From: a virus
Taxonomy: Duplodnaviria > Heunggongvirae > Uroviricota > Caudoviricetes
Strand: one strand, 5' to 3'
Length of the DNA: 29,365 nt
Virus record (IMG/VR): IMGVR_UViG_2693429774_000014
In this document: positions 4,403 through 24,192 of the stretch, in pieces
Layout: each line of letters begins with the position of its first letter
Numbering within the stretch: position 1 is the first letter of the stretch
Made by a program: the position numbers and the translations under genes
Notes under the pieces: generated by a model
Told to the model about the DNA's origin: nothing
Database searches by the model: none
What the model saw: the letters and a program-made list of their open reading frames with translations, nothing else

Positions 4403-4455
4403 GGGCGGCAGAGCAGTCACGGAGTAAAACTGATACCGCCAAACGTCACCAGAAA
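4403..4455 (-). ncRNA. dicF: DicF small regulatory RNA (53 nt processed form; intrinsic-terminator U-tract extends to about 4398)
   Basis: Minus-strand sequence UUUCUGGUGACGUUUGGCGGUAUCAGUUUUACUCCGUGACUGCUCUGCCGCCC followed by UUUUU matches DicF as I recall it. Lies between ydfC and dicB as in the K-12 dicB operon. Confidence 0.7.
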
Positions 4456-5041: not shown

Positions 5042-5173
5042 TTATCAGCCGTTAGATTTTGCCGAACTGGAAAGCGCCTGTTTAAATTCGTTGAAGCTGA
5101 GAGCTTCTTCGCCTTCGGCAAGACCTTCGAAGTATTCTTCGTAAGCCTTTTCCATGATTGTGTCGAAATCCAT
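5042..5173 (-). CDS. ydfB: YdfB-like small acidic protein (43 aa; not in the supplied ORF track because it is under 60 aa)
   Basis: ORF MDFDTIMEKAYEEYFEGLAEGEEALSFNEFKQALSSSAKSNG found by reading the minus strand. AGGTGA ribosome-binding site; start is 2 nt from the ydfA stop. K-12 ydfB is about 42 aa. Confidence 0.45.
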
Positions 5174-5174
5174 A

Positions 5175-5330
5175 TCACTCACCTGAGTTTCTTTCCAGCC
5201 AGCGACGGGCACCATTTTCGGTTTTAAACGTTTTGCTTTTGGTATACGTCATCGCGGTGAACGTACCGTCCTGGTTGGGAAACACGCCGTACACCAGAGA
5301 TTCGTTGTTGCCAAGATCGATAGTATCCAT
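5175..5330 (-). CDS. ydfA: YdfA-like protein (51 aa), first gene of the dicB operon
   Basis: MDTIDLGNNESLVYGVFPNQDGTFTAMTYTKSKTFKTENGARRWLERNSGE. GAGG ribosome-binding site upstream of the internal ATG at 5328-5330. The track's longer 69-aa form lacks a ribosome-binding site. Confidence 0.5.
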   Translation of the reverse strand: MDTIDLGNNESLVYGVFPNQDGTFTAMTYTKSKTFKTENGARRWLERNSGE

Positions 5331-5410
5331 GCTGACCTCATTTCCCCTTAACGCTGGGGTAGCGGAACTGTTTGCTGAGAACACCGTGCGGTGTGTTGAT
5401 GCAAATAAGA

Positions 5411-5424
5411 TTAGCCATGGCTAA
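5411..5424. promoter_or_regulatory. Palindromic operator TTAGCCATGGCTAA in the dicB-operon promoter region; related half-site copy TGTTATGGCTAACA at about 5448-5461
   Basis: Perfect 14-bp palindrome read directly. Shares the half-site TTAG..CTAA with the dicA-dicC intergenic palindrome. Located upstream of ydfA between the divergent dicA and dicB-operon genes. Confidence 0.55.
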
Positions 5425-5496
5425 CATATAGGTCAAGTGATTTTGTATGTTATGGCTAACATGATTGATGTGGTAAAAGATAACTCATTGATGATG

Positions 5497-5904
5497 TTAT
5501 CTTTTATTTGTCCGCTGACGGGCTTTTAGTAATTCTTCAAAGAGTTTATTGAAGTTTTTTACTCGAGCTCGCATTTCGGCGAGCTGGGTATCCTGTTCTG
5601 ATTCTGGCAGTGCATTAAACAGCTCAAGGAGCTCTAGTTCTTTGGGGGATAAGGCAACTGGCTTCTCAACAGGTGGTGTTGGTTGCTTGTCTTCATCGCC
5701 AAATAGAATCCATGTTGGTGAGCATTGCAATACTTTGCTGAGGGCAAAAAGGTTCTTCCCTGTAGGTTCACTATCATCCCGTTCCCATTGTGATACAGAC
5801 ACATGGGAGATTTTCAGGGCTTTAGCAAGAGACCTTTGGGTGTGTTTGAGGTTTTTCCGACGATACCTAATGCGTTCGCCGATAGTTAAATTTTTTGTTT
5901 CCAT
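5497..5904 (-). CDS. dicA: DicA, HTH (XRE-family) repressor of the dicB operon (135 aa)
   Basis: METKNLTIGERIRYRRKNLKHTQRSLAKALKISHVSVSQWERDDSEPTGKNL... has an N-terminal HTH. 135 aa as in K-12 DicA. Divergent from dicC. Confidence 0.9.
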   Translation of the reverse strand: METKNLTIGERIRYRRKNLKHTQRSLAKALKISHVSVSQWERDDSEPTGKNLFALSKVLQCSPTWILFGDEDKQPTPPVEKPVALSPKELELLELFNALPESEQDTQLAEMRARVKNFNKLFEELLKARQRTNKR

Positions 5905-5953
5905 AGTTAGCTAATGCTAAATCGTATTGACTATGTTTTTGTTAACATCTATT

Positions 5954-5973
5954 TTGTTAGTCATGACTAACAA
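5954..5973. promoter_or_regulatory. 20-bp perfect palindrome TTGTTAGTCATGACTAACAA in the dicA-dicC intergenic region (operator)
   Basis: Self-complementary sequence read directly; sits between the divergent dicA and dicC starts. Confidence 0.6.
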
Positions 5974-5987
5974 TAAAGGTGTTTTAA

Positions 5988-6218
5988 ATGCTTAAAACTG
6001 ACGCTCTTTTGTATTTCGGTTCAAAAACAAAACTTGCACAAGCAGCAGGTATTCGTTTGGCTTCGCTTTATAGCTGGAAAGGGGATTTAGTTCCCGAAGG
6101 TCGCGCGATGCGTCTACAGGAGGCATCTGGCGGGGAGCTTCAGTATGATCCCAAAGTTTATGATGAATATCGTAAGACGAAGCGGGCGGGGCGGTTGAAC
6201 AATGAAAATCACTCCTGA
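5988..6218 (+). CDS. dicC: DicC, Cro-like regulator (76 aa)
   Basis: 76-aa ORF divergent from dicA with AAAGGTG ribosome-binding site. Sequence MLKTDALLYFGSKTKLAQAAGIRLASLYSWKGD... matches my recollection of DicC. Confidence 0.85.
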   Translation: MLKTDALLYFGSKTKLAQAAGIRLASLYSWKGDLVPEGRAMRLQEASGGELQYDPKVYDEYRKTKRAGRLNNENHS

Positions 6219-6723
6219 ACAGGCTCGTGAGGCTCTGGATGCCTGGATATGTCGACCAGGAATGACACAGGAGCAGGCGACGATATTAATCACTGAAGCA
6301 TTCTGGGCTTTGAAAGAGCGCCCGAACATCGATGTTCAGCGTGTCACAGATGAAGGTGGCGCGGTTGATCAGCGAGCGCTTGGCGTTAATCGAGTGAAGA
6401 TATTCGAACGCTGGAAGGCTATCGACACCAGGGATAAGCGTGAAAAGTTCACGGCGCTAGTGCCTGCGATTATGGAGGCTATCCGGATTAGTGATTTCAG
6501 GTTGTATCGTGAGATCAGTGATGGAAAAAGTATTACGTACATGATCGCCGGGTTAAATAAAGAATATGGCGATGTGGTGGAATCCGGACTGCTTTTTGCA
6601 GATCCTGCCGTTGTAGATCGTGAAACTGACGAACTTATAGAAAAAGCAATTGCTTTCAAGCTTGCGCATCGACAGCAATACCAACAAAAAGCTGGATGGA
6701 ATTATGAGTCTTCTTTTTGCTGA
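6202..6723 (+). CDS. Hypothetical early-region protein (173 aa), in the cII/YdaT position between the cro-like gene and the replication gene
   Basis: ORF overlaps the dicC stop and the downstream replication gene start (operon coupling). No motif I can assign. Confidence 0.55.
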   Translation: MKITPEQAREALDAWICRPGMTQEQATILITEAFWALKERPNIDVQRVTDEGGAVDQRALGVNRVKIFERWKAIDTRDKREKFTALVPAIMEAIRISDFRLYREISDGKSITYMIAGLNKEYGDVVESGLLFADPAVVDRETDELIEKAIAFKLAHRQQYQQKAGWNYESSFC

Positions 6724-7669
6724 ACGCCCACTGGTTATAAACACGCAGCTGGCAATGAAAATTGGCTTAAACGAAGCCATTGTTTTGCAACAACTGCACT
6801 ACTGGTTGAGAGATACCAACTCCGGCATGGAATGTGATGGTGTTCGCTGGATTTATAACACAACGGAACAATGGCTGGAACAGTTCCCATTCTGGTCAGA
6901 GTCAACGTTAAAGCGCGCGTTTGCAAGTCTGAAAACGCTGGGGCTTTTGCGTTGTGAAAAGCTCAATAAATCAAAGCGCGATATGACCAATTTCTACACG
7001 ATCAACTACGGGAGCGAGCTTTTAGATGGTGGCAAATTGAGCGAATCCATCGGTTTAAAATGCGCCGCTCCATCAGGTCAAAATGACACGATGGAAGAGG
7101 TCAAAATGAAACGCTCCATTGGTTCAAAACGACTCAATGTCATCGGGTCAAAATGGCCTGATGATCTTACAGAGAATACAACAGAGATTACTACAGAGAA
7201 TAAAAAGACTTCTCGTCCGGAAGCTTCGCAACCGGACCCGCAGACGGTTGAACAGGATTTTTTAACCCGACACCCTGACGCGGTTGTGTTCAGTGCGAAA
7301 AAACGCCAGTGGGGCAGCCAGGAAGATTTGGCGTGTGCGCAGTGGATCTGGGGGCGAATCGTGAGTCTTTACGAGCAGGCCGCCAGCGATGATGGCGAGA
7401 TTTCGCGACCGAAAGAACCCAACTGGACCGCATGGGCCAACGACGTGCGCACAATGCGGATGCTGGATGGCAGAACTCACAGACAAATTTGTGAAATGTT
7501 TGGTCGGGTGCAGCGGGATCCATTCTGGGTAAAAAATATCATGAGTCCGTCAAAGCTTCGCGAAAAATGGGATGAACTGGTTATCCGCCTGGGGCGTTCG
7601 TCTGTACAGCGTTGTGTGAATCATATTTCTGAGCCGGATACCGAAATTCCGCCGGGCTTCAGGGGGTAA
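6704..7669 (+). CDS. Phage replication protein with DnaT-like (primosomal protein I) C-terminal domain; start taken at the internal ATG (MSLLFAERP), ORF could begin at 6650
   Basis: C-terminus ...VNHISEPDTEIPPGFRG closely matches the E. coli DnaT C-terminus (...SEPDSQIPPGFRG) as I recall it. The N-terminal half is of a type I associate with phage replication organisers. Confidence 0.8.
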   Translation: MSLLFAERPLVINTQLAMKIGLNEAIVLQQLHYWLRDTNSGMECDGVRWIYNTTEQWLEQFPFWSESTLKRAFASLKTLGLLRCEKLNKSKRDMTNFYTINYGSELLDGGKLSESIGLKCAAPSGQNDTMEEVKMKRSIGSKRLNVIGSKWPDDLTENTTEITTENKKTSRPEASQPDPQTVEQDFLTRHPDAVVFSAKKRQWGSQEDLACAQWIWGRIVSLYEQAASDDGEISRPKEPNWTAWANDVRTMRMLDGRTHRQICEMFGRVQRDPFWVKNIMSPSKLREKWDELVIRLGRSSVQRCVNHISEPDTEIPPGFRG

Positions 7670-7709
7670 GTGTTAATTTCTGGTCATGAGGTAATTTTCA
7701 GGAGGGCTT

Positions 7710-8132
7710 GTGGCAAAAGTTTTTACACAAGAAGAGCGGGAAAAAATTAAAGGGCAGGTTGTTGAACTCGTACGCCGGAGTGGGCGTGAGACGTTACGGC
7801 AACTGGAAGTCAAGACAGGTGCGACAAGATATCTGATGAGCGTTCTCGCAAGAGAGCTGGTTGCCAGCGGCGATGTATACAACTCTGGTTACGGGTTATT
7901 CCCGTCTGAACAGGCGCGTAAGGACTGGCAAAATGCCCGTAAAAAGCTCTCAAGGGCAAAGCTGAAGGAACCATCTGCGGTTGATCCGGACCTTATCTGG
8001 TCATTACCTGACGGAGAAATACGTCGCTACGACAGGCGTCAGAACATAATCTGTCGCGAGTGCCGGAAGAGTGAAGTTATGCAGCGCATACTAGCATTCT
8101 ATCAGGGAAATGCTCGATATTTATTGAAGTGA
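7710..8132 (+). CDS. Hypothetical phage protein (140 aa, GTG start), basic
   Basis: Strong AGGAGGG ribosome-binding site 7 nt upstream of GTG; basic, Cys-containing C-terminal half (RECRKSEVMQR). No confident family assignment. Confidence 0.6.
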   Translation: MAKVFTQEEREKIKGQVVELVRRSGRETLRQLEVKTGATRYLMSVLARELVASGDVYNSGYGLFPSEQARKDWQNARKKLSRAKLKEPSAVDPDLIWSLPDGEIRRYDRRQNIICRECRKSEVMQRILAFYQGNARYLLK

Positions 8133-21327: not shown

Positions 21328-21642
21328 ATGCTACATGATCACGTGGCAGAATGTCTGGAGAAAAAAGGACTGTACCGGAGAGCAGCTGAACGATGGGCAA
21401 AAGTGATGGTACAGCTAAGTGATGACCAGAAAAGAAAAGTGGCGGCACAGAAACGAGCAGAGTGTTTGCGTAAGGCGCGCCGGACTCCGGTTTCACCGGT
21501 GAACCTGACCGAAATAAAACAAGCGGTCAACAGACTACATTCTGAGTTGGGAATGGGATTTGAAGAGCGGCGGGTATTCCGACGATATAAAGGGACAGGA
21601 GAACAGAATACGTCCGGAAACGCGCGGTCAAAAAAATGCTAA
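21328..21642 (+). CDS. PerC-family (Pch-like) transcriptional regulator candidate (104 aa) behind a long AT-rich leader
   Basis: N-terminal LEKKGLYRRAAERW resembles the PerC-family signature I recall (G-aromatic-RRA..RW). Perfect GGAGG ribosome-binding site. About 460 bp of AT-rich, T-tract-rich upstream DNA. Confidence 0.55.
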   Translation: MLHDHVAECLEKKGLYRRAAERWAKVMVQLSDDQKRKVAAQKRAECLRKARRTPVSPVNLTEIKQAVNRLHSELGMGFEERRVFRRYKGTGEQNTSGNARSKKC

Positions 21643-21723: not shown

Positions 21724-21948
21724 TTAAGTAAACCTGTCTGAACAGGTGCTCTGGTCGTGTTTGTCTTTGTTGGGTACAAATTGAGAATATTTTTCATTAA
21801 TTAATCTTCTTCTGCAGGCTTCAATAACCCACGCTGAAAAATTACCTGAACCTTTCAGGTCAAGAGCGATGTTAATTTGTTCAATTATCTGGTTTGGAAA
21901 TCGGATGTTGCGGGTTGTTGTTCTGCGGGTTCTGTTCTTTGATGACAT
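21724..21948 (-). CDS. Small lambda right-end ORF homolog (YlcI/DUF3950-like, 74 aa)
   Basis: MSSKNRTRRTTTRNIRFPNQIIEQINIALDLKGSGNFSAWVIEACRRRL resembles the small ORF near the right end of lambda as I recall it; lies just cos-proximal, as in lambda. Confidence 0.5.
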   Translation of the reverse strand: MSSKNRTRRTTTRNIRFPNQIIEQINIALDLKGSGNFSAWVIEACRRRLINEKYSQFVPNKDKHDQSTCSDRFT

Positions 21949-22155
21949 AATGTTGCCCCGTATTCAGTGTTGCTGATTTGTATTATCTGAAGTTGCTTTT
22001 ACGCTAATTTGATGCATATCAATTAATACGATACCTGCGTAATAATTGATTATTTCTCGTGGTTTGATGGCGTACACACATGTCGTGATAAACCTCATGT
22101 AGATGATAATTATTATCATTTTCGTGGGTCCTTTCCGGCGATCCGACAGGTTACG

Positions 22156-22167
22156 GGGCGGCGACCT
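22156..22167 (+). other. cosN cohesive-end sequence GGGCGGCGACCT (lambda-type cos), with flanking sequence resembling the lambda genome ends
   Basis: GGGCGGCGACCTCGCGGGTTTTCGCTATTTATGAAAATTTTCCGG matches the first about 45 nt of the lambda genome as I recall it, and the upstream ...CGATCCGACAGGTTACG resembles the lambda right end. Homology to lambda stops after TTTTCCGG. Confidence 0.75.
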
Positions 22168-22350
22168 CGCGGGTTTTCGCTATTTATGAAAATTTTCCGG
22201 GATCCATGTCCGGTTTCTCTTCAAGTTAACTATATGAAAAATATAAAAACAGGTCTTCTGTGAACCGGACATGAACAAAAAACAGACATGTAAACCGGAC
22301 ATGACCGGTTTTGTTGTGATTGTGAGGTGAGAGTTTTTGCGAGGTGAGGA

Positions 22351-23808
22351 GTGGCTACGCAGCCCGCCTATGCGCGGGTTTTCTTTTGCGCGCTCGGGCG
22401 CGAGATGGGGGCAGCAAGTCTTTCGGTACCACAACAGCAGGTACAGTTTGATGCTCCCGGAATGCTGGCTGAAACGGACGAGTACATGGCCGGAGGTAAA
22501 CGACCGGCCCGTGTTTACAGGGTGGTGAACGGTATTGCTGTACTGCCGGTGACCGGCACGCTGGTGCACCGGCTGGGTGGTATGCGGCCATTTTCCGGAA
22601 TGACAGGCTATGACGGTATTGTCGCCTGTCTTCGGCAGGCAATGGCGGATAGCCAGGTGCGGGGCGTACTGCTGGACATTGACAGTCCGGGCGGGCAGGC
22701 CGCCGGCGCGTTTGACTGCGCTGACATGATTTACCGCCTCCGTCAGCAGAAGCCGGTCTGGGCACTGTGCAATGACACGGCCTGTTCTGCAGCCATGCTG
22801 CTGGCGTCGGCCTGCTCCCGACGGCTGGTTACCCAGACATCCCGTATCGGCTCCATTGGCGTGATGATGAGCCATGTCAGCTATGCCGGTCATCTGGCGC
22901 AGGCCGGTGTGGATATCACGCTGATTTACTCAGGGACGCACAAGGTGGATGGCAATCAGTTTGAAGCCTTACCGGCAGAGGTTCGCCAGGACATGCAGCA
23001 GCGCATTGATGCGGCGCGCCGGATGTTTGCCGAAAAAGTGGCGATGTTTACCGGTCTGTCTGTTGATGCCGTCACGGGAACAGAGGCCGCCGTTTTTGAA
23101 GGTCAGTACGGCATTGATGCCGGGCTGGCGGATGAATTAGTCAATGCGTCGGATGCCATCAGTGTGATGGCCACGGCGCTGAACAGTAATGTCAGAGGAG
23201 GCACTATGCCGCAATTAACTGCAACGGAAGCCGCCGCGCAGGAGAACCAGCGAGTGATGGGGATCCTGACATGCCAGGAAGCGAAAGGACGTGAACAGCT
23301 TGCCACGATGCTGGCAGGACAACAGGGCATGAGCGTTGAACAGGCCCGGGCGATTCTGGCCGCGGCGGCACCGCAGCAGCCGGTGGCATCCACGCAGAGT
23401 GAAGCCGATCGCATTATGGCGTGTGAAGAAGCGAACGGTCGTGAACAACTGGCGGCAACGCTGGCGGCGATGCCGGAGATGACGGTGGAAAAAGCCCGCC
23501 CGATCCTGGCTGCTTCACCGCAGGCGGATGCCGGACCCTCACTCCGTGATCAGATCATGGCACTGGATGAGGCAAAAGGGGCTGAGGCGCAGGCTGAACA
23601 GCTGGCTGCCTGCCCGGGAATGACTGTGGAGAGCGCCCGGGCTGTGCTGGCTGCGGGATCAGGTAAGGCAGAACCGGTCTCTGCATCCACAACCGCCCTG
23701 TTTGAACGCATCATGGCGAACCATTCACCGGCTGCGGTACAGGGTGGCGTGCCACAGACGTCAGCAGACGGTGATGCGGACGTGAAAATGCTCATGGCCA
23801 TGCCATGA
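22351..23808 (+). CDS. C: Lambda gpC-like head maturation protease/scaffold (S49 family), N-terminally remodelled (GTG start, 485 aa)
   Basis: QPAYARVFFCALG...GIAVLPVTGTL...LLDIDSPGG...KPVWALCND...RRLVTQTSRIGSIGVMM...ITLIYSGTHKVDGN is strongly similar to lambda gpC as I recall it. GAGGTGAGGAG ribosome-binding site precedes the GTG. The first roughly 25 residues of lambda C have no counterpart. Confidence 0.85.
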   Translation: MATQPAYARVFFCALGREMGAASLSVPQQQVQFDAPGMLAETDEYMAGGKRPARVYRVVNGIAVLPVTGTLVHRLGGMRPFSGMTGYDGIVACLRQAMADSQVRGVLLDIDSPGGQAAGAFDCADMIYRLRQQKPVWALCNDTACSAAMLLASACSRRLVTQTSRIGSIGVMMSHVSYAGHLAQAGVDITLIYSGTHKVDGNQFEALPAEVRQDMQQRIDAARRMFAEKVAMFTGLSVDAVTGTEAAVFEGQYGIDAGLADELVNASDAISVMATALNSNVRGGTMPQLTATEAAAQENQRVMGILTCQEAKGREQLATMLAGQQGMSVEQARAILAAAAPQQPVASTQSEADRIMACEEANGREQLAATLAAMPEMTVEKARPILAASPQADAGPSLRDQIMALDEAKGAEAQAEQLAACPGMTVESARAVLAAGSGKAEPVSASTTALFERIMANHSPAAVQGGVPQTSADGDADVKMLMAMP

Positions 23809-23844: not shown

Positions 23845-24192
23845 ATGGTAACGAAAAACATCACTGAACAGCGTGCGGAAGTACGTATTTTTGCCGGTAA
23901 TGATCCGGCTCATACCGCCACAGGCAGCAGCGGGATTTCCTCGGCAACACCGGCACTGACGCCCCTGATGCTGGATGAAGCCAGCGGGAAACTGGTGGTC
24001 TGGGACGGACAGAAAGCCGGTAGTGCAGTTGGCATACTGGTACTGCCGCTTGAAGGCACAGAGACGGTACTGACCTATTACAAGTCGGGGACCTTTGCGA
24101 CGGAGGCAATCCGCTGGCCTGAAAGTGTGGATGAACACAAAAAGGCAAATGCCTTTGCCGGCAGTGCCCTGAGTCACGCGGCGCTGCCGTAA
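23845..24192 (+). CDS. D: Lambda gpD-like head decoration protein (115 aa)
   Basis: GNDPAHTATG...TPLMLDEASGKLVVWDG...VGILVLPL...YYKSGTF...WPE...AFAG resembles lambda gpD. AGGAGG ribosome-binding site. Confidence 0.85.
   Translation: MVTKNITEQRAEVRIFAGNDPAHTATGSSGISSATPALTPLMLDEASGKLVVWDGQKAGSAVGILVLPLEGTETVLTYYKSGTFATEAIRWPESVDEHKKANAFAGSALSHAALP

What the first reader, a model, noticed from the sequence alone, without database searches (positions are those of the whole stretch)
22140..22355. Lambda-type cosN retained but terminase and portal genes absent; three copies of ACCGGACATG lie between cos and a remodelled C gene
The cos sequence and both lambda-end-like flanks are present, but lambda-like sequence ends after about 45 nt and the next gene is a gpC-like protease with a new GTG start and strong ribosome-binding site. 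Nu1, A, W and B are missing, so the prophage cannot package itself. The 150 bp between cos and the GTG contain three copies of ACCGGACATG (one inverted, at about 22205-22213, 22264-22273 and 22294-22303), which could be small-terminase (cosB-like) binding sites of non-lambda specificity or a deletion/recombination junction. A retained cos could allow packaging by a helper phage.
Basis: partly seen in the sequence, partly recalled or inferred. Interest (0 to 1): 0.55.

Follow-up and report, generated by a model that had tools for sequence, protein, structure and literature searches.

The report
Orphaned cos site of decayed prophage
This is an intact DNA-packaging (cos) site of a common but little-studied lambda-like prophage family, stranded in one E. 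coli isolate by a 4.2-kb deletion that removed the terminase and portal genes; the three repeats are most likely the normal small-terminase binding sites, so the locus is ordinary prophage decay.

Summary
cosN (GGGCGGCGACCT, 22156-22167) and cosQ (22126-22132) are present. Lambda identity stops at bp 45 of the left end. Three exact ACCGGACATG copies lie at 22205-14(-), 22264-73(+) and 22294-303(+). Nu1/A/W/B are absent.

The interpretation needs correcting in three ways.

- **The GTG at 22351 is not new.** It and its ribosome-binding site are the original terS start. A 4226-bp deletion with 2-nt microhomology (junction 22362/22363) fused terS codon 4 in frame to gpC codon 21.
- **The repeats are not a deletion scar.** The same 167 bp precede an intact terS at 1834 places in 1158 of 5426 complete E. 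coli genomes, and in the deposited PhiR12 phage genomes.
- **The repeats look like cosB R sites.** They sit where lambda and phage 21 have R3, I1, R2 and R1. Their core (CATGTCCGG) resembles phage 21's (CATGTCGG). One base in the site covaries with residue 20 of the small terminase's predicted recognition helix.

The deletion occurs only in this isolate (GCA_001284905.2). Two further deletions truncate the capsid gene and remove most tail genes. This is routine prophage decay, plus a new specificity member of the lambda/21 cos family.

The parts
22126..22132 (+). cosQ (GGGTCCT), the packaging-termination subsite, 30 bp upstream of cosN
   Evidence: It is invariant in 34 distinct E. coli-group cos sequences. 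The script used this motif as its anchor and found it upstream of terS in 122 of 128 class-A loci. PMC4669245 describes cosQ as highly conserved.
22156..22167 (+). cosN, the 12-nt cohesive-end sequence GGGCGGCGACCT (bp 1-12 of the left end)
   Evidence: It is identical to phage 21 and to the lambda-type DLP12 cos. Only 1 of 12 columns varies among 34 relatives.
22168..22200 (+). bp 13-45 of the left end, shared with lambda and 21 (CGCGGGTTTTCGCTATTTATGAAAATTTTCCGG). Lambda-like sequence ends here.
   Evidence: Lambda-type phage matches stop at window 22200. See also the alignment.
22205..22215 (-). R3-equivalent small-terminase site, CATGTCCGGTT on the top strand (bp 50-60). This is the first ACCGGACATG copy.
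   Evidence: It occupies the position of lambda and 21 R3 (bp 50-65; PMC9026076). It is invariant in 34 distinct relatives.
22227..22239 (.). I1-like site (TAACTATATGAAA), a putative IHF bend site between R3 and R2
   Evidence: It aligns with the annotated I1 of phage 21 (bp 74-86). Klebsiella and other E. coli relatives have TAACCAATTGATT here, a perfect IHF consensus by my reading. The window copy has 2 mismatches to that consensus.
22263..22273 (+). R2-equivalent site AACCGGACATG (bp 108-118), inverted relative to R3
   Evidence: An inverted partner lies at bp 106-110 in all the enterobacterial lineages examined. It aligns with phage 21 R2.
22293..22310 (.). R1-equivalent composite AACCGGACATGACCGGTT. 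It holds a third direct copy (22293-22303, +) overlapped by a one-mismatch inverted copy (22300-22310, -).
   Evidence: Position and orientation of the third site vary between lineages (bp 137-152, either strand), and some lineages lack it.
22341..22362 (+). Native terS Shine-Dalgarno sequence (GAGGTGAGGA) and terS codons 1-4 (GTG GCT ACG CAG)
   Evidence: Identical to the start of the annotated terminase small subunit WP_000235436.1 in O103:H2 12009 and MEI003.
22361..22363 (.). Deletion junction D1. 4226 bp are missing (the rest of terS, terL, W, portal and gpC codons 1-20), with 2-nt 'AG' microhomology.
   Evidence: BLAST breakpoints: window 21801-22362 matches L001 8902-9463, and window 22361-25163 matches L001 13688-16490. 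The same breakpoints appear against MEI003.
22351..23808 (+). In-frame TerS(4 aa)-gpC(aa 21-501) fusion ORF of 485 aa, an S49 prohead protease/scaffold homologue
   Evidence: The exact protein (CTX16866.1 / WP_053885145.1) is found only in GCA_001284905.2 and the Logan ERR178178 contig.
23845..24192 (+). Head decoration protein (gpD homologue)
   Evidence: Pfam HDPD, E = 4e-24.
24250..25164 (+). Truncated major capsid gene (304 of 342 codons). It ends at deletion junction D2 (25162/25163), which removes FI through L and joins to the K-like gene.
   Evidence: window 22361-25163 matches L004 13519-10717; window 25162-26583 matches L004 3800-2379.
26055..26729 (+). Tail I N-terminus fused to the gpJ C-terminal domain (deletion D3, junction near 26583)
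   Evidence: Pfam Lambda_tail_I plus Ig_GpJ_C in one ORF. Gene call. Break relative to MEI003.

Best explanation
Window 22126-22350 is a complete lambda-type cos site (cosQ, cosN, cosB) of a widespread E. coli lambdoid prophage family. The family's small terminase has a Nu1-like C-terminal part and a diverged N-terminal winged helix-turn-helix domain that begins MATQ.

The three ACCGGACATG copies are that terminase's R3, R2 and R1 binding sites. R3 sits at bp 50-60 from the nick. An IHF-type bend site follows. R2 is inverted at bp 108-118, and R1 is a composite site.

By analogy with lambda and phage 21, a small-terminase dimer would bind R3 and R2 across the bend and position the large terminase to nick cosN.

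In this one isolate an illegitimate 4226-bp deletion joined terS codon 4 to gpC codon 21. It removed terS, terL, W and the portal gene. Two more deletions truncated the capsid gene and removed most tail genes. The cos site is therefore an orphan in a dead prophage and could work only if a co-resident phage of the same specificity supplied terminase.

Shown: the sequence features, the deletion boundaries, the conservation and the covariation. Inferred: protein binding, IHF bending and any packaging activity.
For: **Deletion**
- The window is 99.95% identical to the intact MEI003 prophage apart from three gaps.
- The D1 breakpoints are defined to the base.
- The fusion protein and contig exist in GCA_001284905.2 and in an independent Logan assembly.
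- The junction is absent from 5426 complete E. coli genomes and from GTDB representative genomes.

**cosB reading of the repeats**
- The 167-bp repeat region matches 1834 places in 1158 of 5426 E. coli genomes. Most listed matches lie over an annotated terS start.
- It also occurs in the deposited phage genomes PhiR12_1, _2, _2_star, _4 and _5.
- The R3 copy lies at bp 50-60. Lambda and 21 R3 lie at bp 50-65 (PMC9026076).
- The layout aligns with the annotated R3/I1/R2/R1 of phage 21. The 21 core is CATGTCGG; the core here is CATGTCCGG.
- Klebsiella, Salmonella, Citrobacter, Enterobacter and a second E. coli lineage (five lineages) keep an inverted pair at bp ~50 and ~108 while the spacers diverge.
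- Among 34 distinct E. coli-group sequences, cosQ and R3 are invariant, cosN varies at 1 of 12 columns, and the spacers vary.
- Motif position 4 is G in all 5 TerS variants with Arg20 and T in all 17 variants without it. This includes one distant, independent Arg lineage.
- Lambda (Asn21, T56) and 21 (Arg21, G56) follow the same rule.

**The small terminase**
- The C-terminal part matches Pfam Phage_Nu1.
Against: - No binding, nicking or packaging data exist for this terminase class. I found none in the searchable literature.
- The covariation rests on at least two independent changes, not 22, because many variants are related.
- The window's I1-like site has two mismatches to the IHF consensus.
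- R1 has the opposite orientation to lambda's R1 unless the overlapping one-mismatch copy is the functional one.
- phmmer found no sequence similarity between the N-terminal domain and any solved terminase small-subunit DNA-binding domain.
Confidence: 0.8

Rival explanations
1. The repeats are a by-product of the deletion or recombination that removed the terminase genes. On this reading they are a junction scar or duplicated microhomology with no function.
For: They lie between cos and the fused gene, close to a real deletion. Direct repeats can arise at illegitimate recombination sites.
Against: - The junction is at 22362/22363, 59 nt past the last repeat.
- The identical repeat region precedes intact terS genes in more than a thousand genomes and in deposited phage genomes.
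- The repeats are conserved across genera at a fixed distance from cosN.
Confidence: 0.01
2. The element is a satellite-like hitchhiker, analogous to a PICI. On this reading, loss of its own terminase and portal while keeping cos is adaptive, and a helper prophage of the same specificity packages it and spreads its cargo.
For: - cos is fully intact and 100% identical to functional-looking loci.
- Genomes that carry this cos type have a median of 2 copies and up to 4, so helpers are often co-resident.
- Gram-negative PICIs do use lambda-like cos sites without their own terS (PMC6092414, PMC6739421).
Against: - The deletion is found in a single isolate.
- Two further deletions cut the capsid gene mid-ORF and fuse I to J, which is the pattern of random decay.
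- The element keeps a full lambdoid early, Q and lysis region. No rpp-like gene follows cos.
- I estimate the remnant at about 31 kb, below the lambda-type packaging window. The integrase of the near-identical MEI003 prophage is annotated as frameshifted.
Confidence: 0.05
3. The repeats act at the RNA or transcription level, for example as small hairpin terminators or attenuators ahead of the late head operon, rather than as protein-binding DNA sites.
For: A simple scan flags terminator-like hairpins at 22197-22213 and 22292-22311, built from CCGG...CCGG followed by T runs.
Against: - Folding of 22255-22355 is no better than shuffled sequence (z = 0.11).
- The left arm of the first hairpin (CCGG at bp 42-45) is not conserved in Salmonella, Citrobacter or Enterobacter relatives, whereas the TCCGGTT core is.
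- The covariation is with a protein residue, not between stem arms.
Confidence: 0.04
4. The apparent loss of the terminase and portal genes is an assembly artefact of a draft genome that holds several similar prophages.
For: The source is a short-read draft contig that ends in the tail-fibre repeat. Lambdoid prophages are a classic cause of chimeric contigs.
Against: - Chimeric joins occur at long shared repeats. Here the two sides share only 2 nt.
- The Logan contig of ERR178178, assembled separately, spans all three junctions.
- An independent, similar deletion exists in complete genomes of other strains.
Confidence: 0.03

Closest known systems
Phage 21 cos (cosB-21: R3-I1-R2-R1, bound by the gp1 small terminase)
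   Same: - cosN is identical, and bp 13-41 are nearly identical.
- R3 starts at bp 50, an I1 site lies around bp 72-86, and R2 is inverted around bp 107-122.
- The R core CATGTC is shared: 21 has CATGTCGG, this class has CATGTCCGG.
- G at motif position 4 is paired with Arg in the recognition helix (21 Arg21; this class Arg20).
   Different: - The core has one extra C and an invariant CCGGTT, and it sits 3 bp closer to cosN.
- R1 is a composite with opposite primary orientation.
- The small-terminase N-terminal domain is so diverged that a tblastn search with it does not find phage 21. Pfam Nu1 matches only its C-terminal part.
- Cross-packaging between the two has not been tested.
Phage lambda cos (cosQ-cosN-cosB, gpNu1)
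   Same: - cosQ, cosN and the first 45 bp are the same.
- The three-site plus IHF architecture is shared.
- The small terminase has a winged helix-turn-helix fold and a Nu1-like C-terminal part.
- The gene order is cos, terS, terL, W, portal, C, D, E in intact relatives.
   Different: - The R sites are CGTTTCC(G/T)TTCT in lambda and CATGTCCGGTT here.
- The recognition helix is SIRTIQNWQE in lambda and DRQLRRLQK here.
- In this window only four terS codons remain.
N15 / Monarch cosB (simple versus complex cosB; PMC4669245)
   Same: The same family contains both complex cosBs (R3-I1-R2-R1 in Enterobacteriaceae) and simple cosBs. In the simple form a single R3-position site is followed at once by terS, as in L115-L118 and L155-L163.
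   Different: The N15 R3 sequence (GAGGTTGTTGTT, PMC4669245) and its recognition helix are unrelated to those here.
Gram-negative cos PICIs (EcCICFT073; Rpp redirects helper TerS)
   Different: - There is no rpp gene here and no PICI gene layout.
- The element is a full lambdoid prophage with random-looking deletions.
- The cosB belongs to a bona fide phage small terminase that is intact in relatives.
Cryptic lambdoid prophages with orphan cos (DLP12, Qin of E. coli K-12)
   Same: These are decayed lambdoid prophages that keep the lysis genes and a cos site but have lost most morphogenesis genes.
   Different: DLP12 keeps a lambda-type cosB and a Nu1 homologue, nohD. Here cosB is of the other class and terS is reduced to four codons.

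Membership tests
Lambda-like cos site (cosQ-cosN-cosB) | A 12-nt cohesive-end sequence related to GGGCGGCGACCT, with conserved flanks | tested here: met
   Exact match at 22156-22167. Identical to phage 21 and to the lambda-type DLP12 cos.
Lambda-like cos site (cosQ-cosN-cosB) | A conserved 7-bp cosQ upstream of cosN | tested here: met
   GGGTCCT at 22126-22132. Invariant in relatives. It was the anchor motif found in 122 of 128 class-A loci.
Lambda-like cos site (cosQ-cosN-cosB) | A cosB with an R3 site at about bp 50-65, an IHF site, an inverted R2, and R1 | tested here: met
   Sites lie at bp 50-60, 72-84, 108-118 and 138-155. They align with the annotated phage 21 subsites. R1 orientation differs.
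Lambda-like cos site (cosQ-cosN-cosB) | A small-terminase gene immediately downstream | tested here: not met
   Only terS codons 1-4 remain in the window. The feature is met in relatives.
Lambda-like cos site (cosQ-cosN-cosB) | Terminase binds the R sites and nicks cosN to give 12-nt 5' cohesive ends | not testable with these tools
   There is only indirect support: conservation and covariation between protein and site.
Nu1-family small terminase (judged on intact relatives, WP_000235436.1) | Pfam Phage_Nu1 (PF07471) match | tested here: met
   E = 1e-18, but only residues 49-150 match profile positions 62-163. The N-terminal DNA-binding part does not match.
Nu1-family small terminase (judged on intact relatives, WP_000235436.1) | An N-terminal winged helix-turn-helix DNA-binding domain like that of gpNu1 | tested here: met
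   - AlphaFold pLDDT is 82-86 for residues 1-50, with helices at 4-10, 15-22 and 38-54.
- Foldseek E-values are weak, and phmmer finds no sequence hit.
Phage 21 packaging specificity | gp1-type recognition helix (PRTIERWQS) and R core CATGTCGG | tested here: not met
   The helix here is DRQLRRLQK and the R core is CATGTCCGG. A tblastn search with the N-terminal domain does not hit phage 21.
PICI / cos-type phage satellite | A small island (about 10-15 kb, from my own knowledge) with its own regulation and replication module, an rpp-type redirecting gene after cos, and no phage lysis or structural modules | tested here: not met
   - The window carries DicA/DicC-type immunity, Q, holin, lysozyme and Rz genes, and remnants of head and tail genes.
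- The ORF after cos is a TerS'-gpC fusion, not an Rpp.
Lambda gpC-type prohead protease (S49) | Peptidase_S49 domain, with the gene located between the portal and gpD genes | tested here: met
   Pfam PF01343, E = 1e-34. gpD and gpE homologues follow. The portal gene is deleted and the first 20 codons are replaced.

The most novel reading that the evidence does not exclude
The MATQ-type small terminase and its CATGTCCGGTT sites form a fourth, experimentally uncharacterised packaging specificity of lambda-like phages, present in about a fifth of E. coli genomes.

It obeys a simple recognition rule shared with lambda and 21. Arg at the helix position equivalent to lambda residue 21 reads G at position 4 of the R motif, and Asn, Asp and other residues read T. 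If true, packaging specificity, and therefore which orphan cos sites a resident phage could mobilise, would be predictable from sequence.

Orphan cos sites like this one, next to PerC and effector-type cargo, might then be entry points for helper-driven transfer.
Probability: 0.3. Interest if true: 0.5.

Novelty: new member of a known kind. Interest (0 to 1): 0.3.

Why it matters
For this genome, the locus marks the prophage as dead for self-packaging. It also corrects the annotation of the 485-aa 'S49 peptidase', which is a TerS'-gpC deletion fusion.

More generally, it documents a common E. coli and enterobacterial cos/terminase specificity class. The class occurs in EHEC and EPEC-type prophages, including O157:H7 and O103:H2, and I found no description of it in the searchable literature.

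The link between site base and helix residue, which extends to lambda and phage 21, gives a directly testable handle on how lambda-like phages tell their own DNA from a neighbour's. That matters for predicting cross-packaging among the many co-resident lambdoid prophages of pathogenic E. coli.

Tried and rejected
- **Same deletion elsewhere.** No complete E. coli genome covers the junction in one piece. An exact 43-mer across the junction is absent from GTDB representative genomes. Hits in O157:H7 labelled 'hypothetical protein' turned out to be ISEc8 insertions in terS, not this deletion.
- **Same as phage 21 or DLP12.** DLP12 has a lambda-type cosB. Phage 21 is related in its R core but distinct.
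- **Hairpin or terminator reading of the repeats.** Rejected.
- **More diverse loci.** The genome-contig scan gave few full-length class-A loci. The first viral-contig scan returned only near-identical copies. Diversity came from look-ups of individual homologues and from two further viral scans.
- **Older capsid truncation shared by other isolates.** Most other '304-aa' capsid records are contig-end truncations. One record (L179) has a different downstream partner.
- **Primary literature.** Sippy 2015, Feiss 2015 and Feiss 2010 are not held in the library. The statement that the lambda and 21 recognition helices differ at four of nine residues comes from my memory of the Sippy abstract, and I checked it against the sequences.
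- **Helper prophage in the same strain.** Could not be checked, because only this contig is accessible.
Full report
**What is in the sequence**

The region contains the lambda right-end/left-end join ...CGACAGGTTACG|GGGCGGCGACCT. cosN lies at 22156-22167 and the conserved cosQ heptamer GGGTCCT at 22126-22132.

Lambda-type phages match window 21902-22200 at about 90% and then stop.

ACCGGACATG occurs exactly three times in the 29-kb window, all within 100 bp: 22205-14 (minus strand), 22264-73 and 22294-303 (plus strand). A one-mismatch inverted copy at 22300-09 overlaps the third.

The next ORF, 22351-23808, starts with GTG behind GAGGTGAGGA and is an S49 peptidase of the gpC type. gpD and gpE homologues follow it.

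**Where the window comes from and what is missing**

The window is 100% identical to contig CYDV01000024.1 of the E. coli draft assembly GCA_001284905.2. It is 99.95% identical over 22.4 kb to an intact prophage of E. coli MEI003, which is integrated beside a tRNA-Ser gene and mtfA.

Against MEI003 and O103:H2 strain 12009, the window shows three clean gaps.

- **D1** removes 4226 bp.
  - The left edge falls after terS codon 4 (GTG GCT ACG CAG).
  - The right edge falls at gpC codon 21 (...CTGGAG|CCCGCC...).
  - The two sides share only the dinucleotide AG.
  - The frames of terS and gpC differ by 2, and 4226 mod 3 = 2, so the fusion is in frame: 4 + 481 = 485 aa.
- **D2** (junction 25162/3) cuts the major capsid gene at codon 304 and joins it to the K-like tail gene. 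About 6.9 kb are lost.
- **D3** (near 26583) fuses tail protein I to the last ~50 codons of J.

The 'new GTG start with a strong RBS' is thus the native terS start, and the prophage is morphogenetically dead.

The exact fusion protein is on record only for this isolate and for a separately assembled Logan contig of run ERR178178. That contig spans all three junctions.

The junction is absent from 5426 complete E. coli genomes and from GTDB representative genomes. With only 2 nt of shared sequence at the join, a repeat-driven misassembly is very unlikely.

**What the repeats are**

The 167 bp from 22196 to 22362 match 1834 places in 1158 of 5426 complete E. coli genomes, up to four per genome. 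Most listed matches overlap an annotated terminase small subunit start. The segment also occurs in the deposited phage genomes PhiR12_1, _2, _2_star, _4 and _5. The repeats therefore belong to the normal locus and are not a scar.

*Position.* The positions match the cosB of lambda-like phages.

| Site | This window | Phage 21 (annotated, OL657228.1) |
|---|---|---|
| R3 | bp 50-60 | bp 50-65 |
| I1 | bp 72-84 | bp 74-86 |
| R2 (inverted) | bp 108-118 | bp 107-122 |
| R1 | bp 138-155 | bp 150-166 |

Lambda R3 is also at bp 50-65 (PMC9026076). The phage 21 subsites are, and the window aligns with them collinearly.

*Sequence.* The cores are related. Lambda has CGTTTCC(G/T)TT, phage 21 has C(G/A)TGTCGG, and this class has CATGTCCGGTT.

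*Conservation across genera.* I collected 128 loci that encode this type of small terminase from E. coli, Klebsiella, Salmonella, Citrobacter, Enterobacter and more distant hosts.

- Nearly all lineages have an NNNNTCCGGTT element starting between bp 42 and 59, and most of these start at bp 49-52.
- The enterobacterial lineages have an inverted partner at bp 106-110.
- The third site varies in place and orientation, or is absent.
- The distant lineages have only the R3-position site, directly followed by terS. This is a 'simple' cosB like that of N15 (PMC4669245).

*Conservation within E. coli.* Among 34 distinct E. coli-group sequences, cosQ and R3 are invariant and cosN varies at 1 of 12 columns. 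The cosQ-cosN spacer and the inter-site spacers vary freely.

**The protein partner**

The intact relatives' small terminase (169 aa) matches Pfam Phage_Nu1 only in its C-terminal two-thirds. Its N-terminal 55 residues (MATQTEVARHLSLTDRQLRRLQKLPGAP...) form a separate class from lambda, 21 and a third enterobacterial class.

Neither phmmer against PDB sequences nor a tblastn search of 50,697 phage records links this domain to a characterised small terminase. The tblastn search finds only the PhiR12 phages and distant Aeromonas and Pseudomonas phages.

**Covariation**

Across 22 distinct N-terminal variants, residue 20 in the predicted recognition helix is Arg in five. All five have G at motif position 4 (xxTGTCCGG). 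The other 17 have Asn, Asp, Ser, Thr or Lys, and all have T there (xxTTTCCGG).

Both arms of the inverted pair change together within a phage. One Arg lineage (L114) is nearer to the non-Arg Pseudomonas-type group than to the enterobacterial Arg group. There are therefore at least two independent co-changes.

In the alignment, residue 20 corresponds to lambda residue 21. Lambda has Asn21 with T at bp 56, and phage 21 has Arg21 with G at bp 56. That is the same rule.

This is correlation, not proof of contact. Published genetics assign bp 56 recognition in lambda to Glu24 (PMC4669245).

**Mechanism (inferred)**

By analogy with lambda, a small-terminase dimer docks on R3 and R2 across an IHF-induced bend and anchors the large terminase to nick cosN (PMC9026076, PMC4669245). 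In this window every cis element is intact but the enzyme genes are gone. The site can act only in trans.

Whether the strain has a helper of the same class cannot be checked from one contig. Co-residence is common in other genomes.

I estimate the remnant at about 31 kb. This is roughly 48 kb in MEI003 minus about 4.2 kb (D1), about 6.9 kb (D2) and several kb (D3). That is under the ~38-51 kb packaging window known for lambda, so efficient mobilisation seems unlikely. This is my inference.

**Rivals**

- **Scar hypothesis.** Refuted by conservation in intact loci.
- **Hairpin or terminator reading.** It fails because folding is no better than shuffled sequence and the stems are not conserved.
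- **Adaptive satellite reading.** Disfavoured because the deletion is private to one isolate, the other deletions look random, and the gene layout is that of a full lambdoid prophage.
- **Misassembly.** Disfavoured, as explained above.

**Verdict**

The deletion is ordinary prophage decay. The cos site is a new specificity member of the lambda/21 cos family. It is common and unstudied, and it offers a tidy, testable recognition rule.

Noticed in passing
[not shown]
   Followed up: partly
window 25162-25163 and about 26583: Two further deletions relative to the MEI003 prophage. One truncates the major capsid gene at codon 304 and joins it to the K-like gene (about 6.9 kb lost). The other fuses tail protein I to the C-terminal ~50 codons of J. 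The first junction has a 2-nt overlap.
   Followed up: partly
L103 (IMG/VR UViG_2675903621_000013), upstream of terS: A natural variant lacks 30 bp, so that R2 and R1 are merged (GAACCGGACATGACCGGTT). This is as expected from unequal crossing-over between the repeats, the route proposed in PMC4669245 for simplification of cosB.
   Followed up: no
L005 (O157:H7 strain 7.1_Anguil), 5156-8111: In several O157:H7 genomes the same cos class is followed by a terS that is split by an ISEc8 (IS66-family) insertion, and terL is frameshifted. This is another route to an orphaned cos site.
   Followed up: partly
window 4403-4454 (-), with dicA/dicC-like genes at 5497-6218: A DicF sRNA (Rfam, 76.7 bits) lies in a Qin-type immunity region. 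The near-identical MEI003 prophage is annotated there with dicA, dicC, ydfB, ydfC and dicB.
   Followed up: no
window 11534-11708 (+); 16024-16196 (+): A sok antitoxin RNA of a hok/sok module (114 bits) and the sRNA STnc100 (100.8 bits).
   Followed up: no
window 15004-15253 (+): Three tRNA genes lie downstream of the Q antiterminator gene: anticodons CAT (RefSeq calls the MEI003 copy tRNA-Ile), TCG (Arg) and TCT (Arg).
   Followed up: no
window 21328-21642 (+): A PerC-family transcriptional activator homologue (Pfam E = 4e-44) lies just upstream of cos. The related MEI003 prophage also carries sodC and the effector genes nleB2, nleC, nleH and nleF near its tail-fibre end.
   Followed up: no
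window 8385-10258: A SMEK-domain gene (8385-9284, +) and a class I SAM-dependent methyltransferase (9599-10258, -) lie inside the early region. They may be cargo or defence-related genes.
   Followed up: no
L111/L112 (IMG/VR), about bp 141 after cosN: In this lineage the third R site is in the same orientation as R3 (CATTTCCGGTT), as in lambda. The window's lineage has it mainly in the R2 orientation. R1 orientation is therefore not fixed in this family.
   Followed up: no
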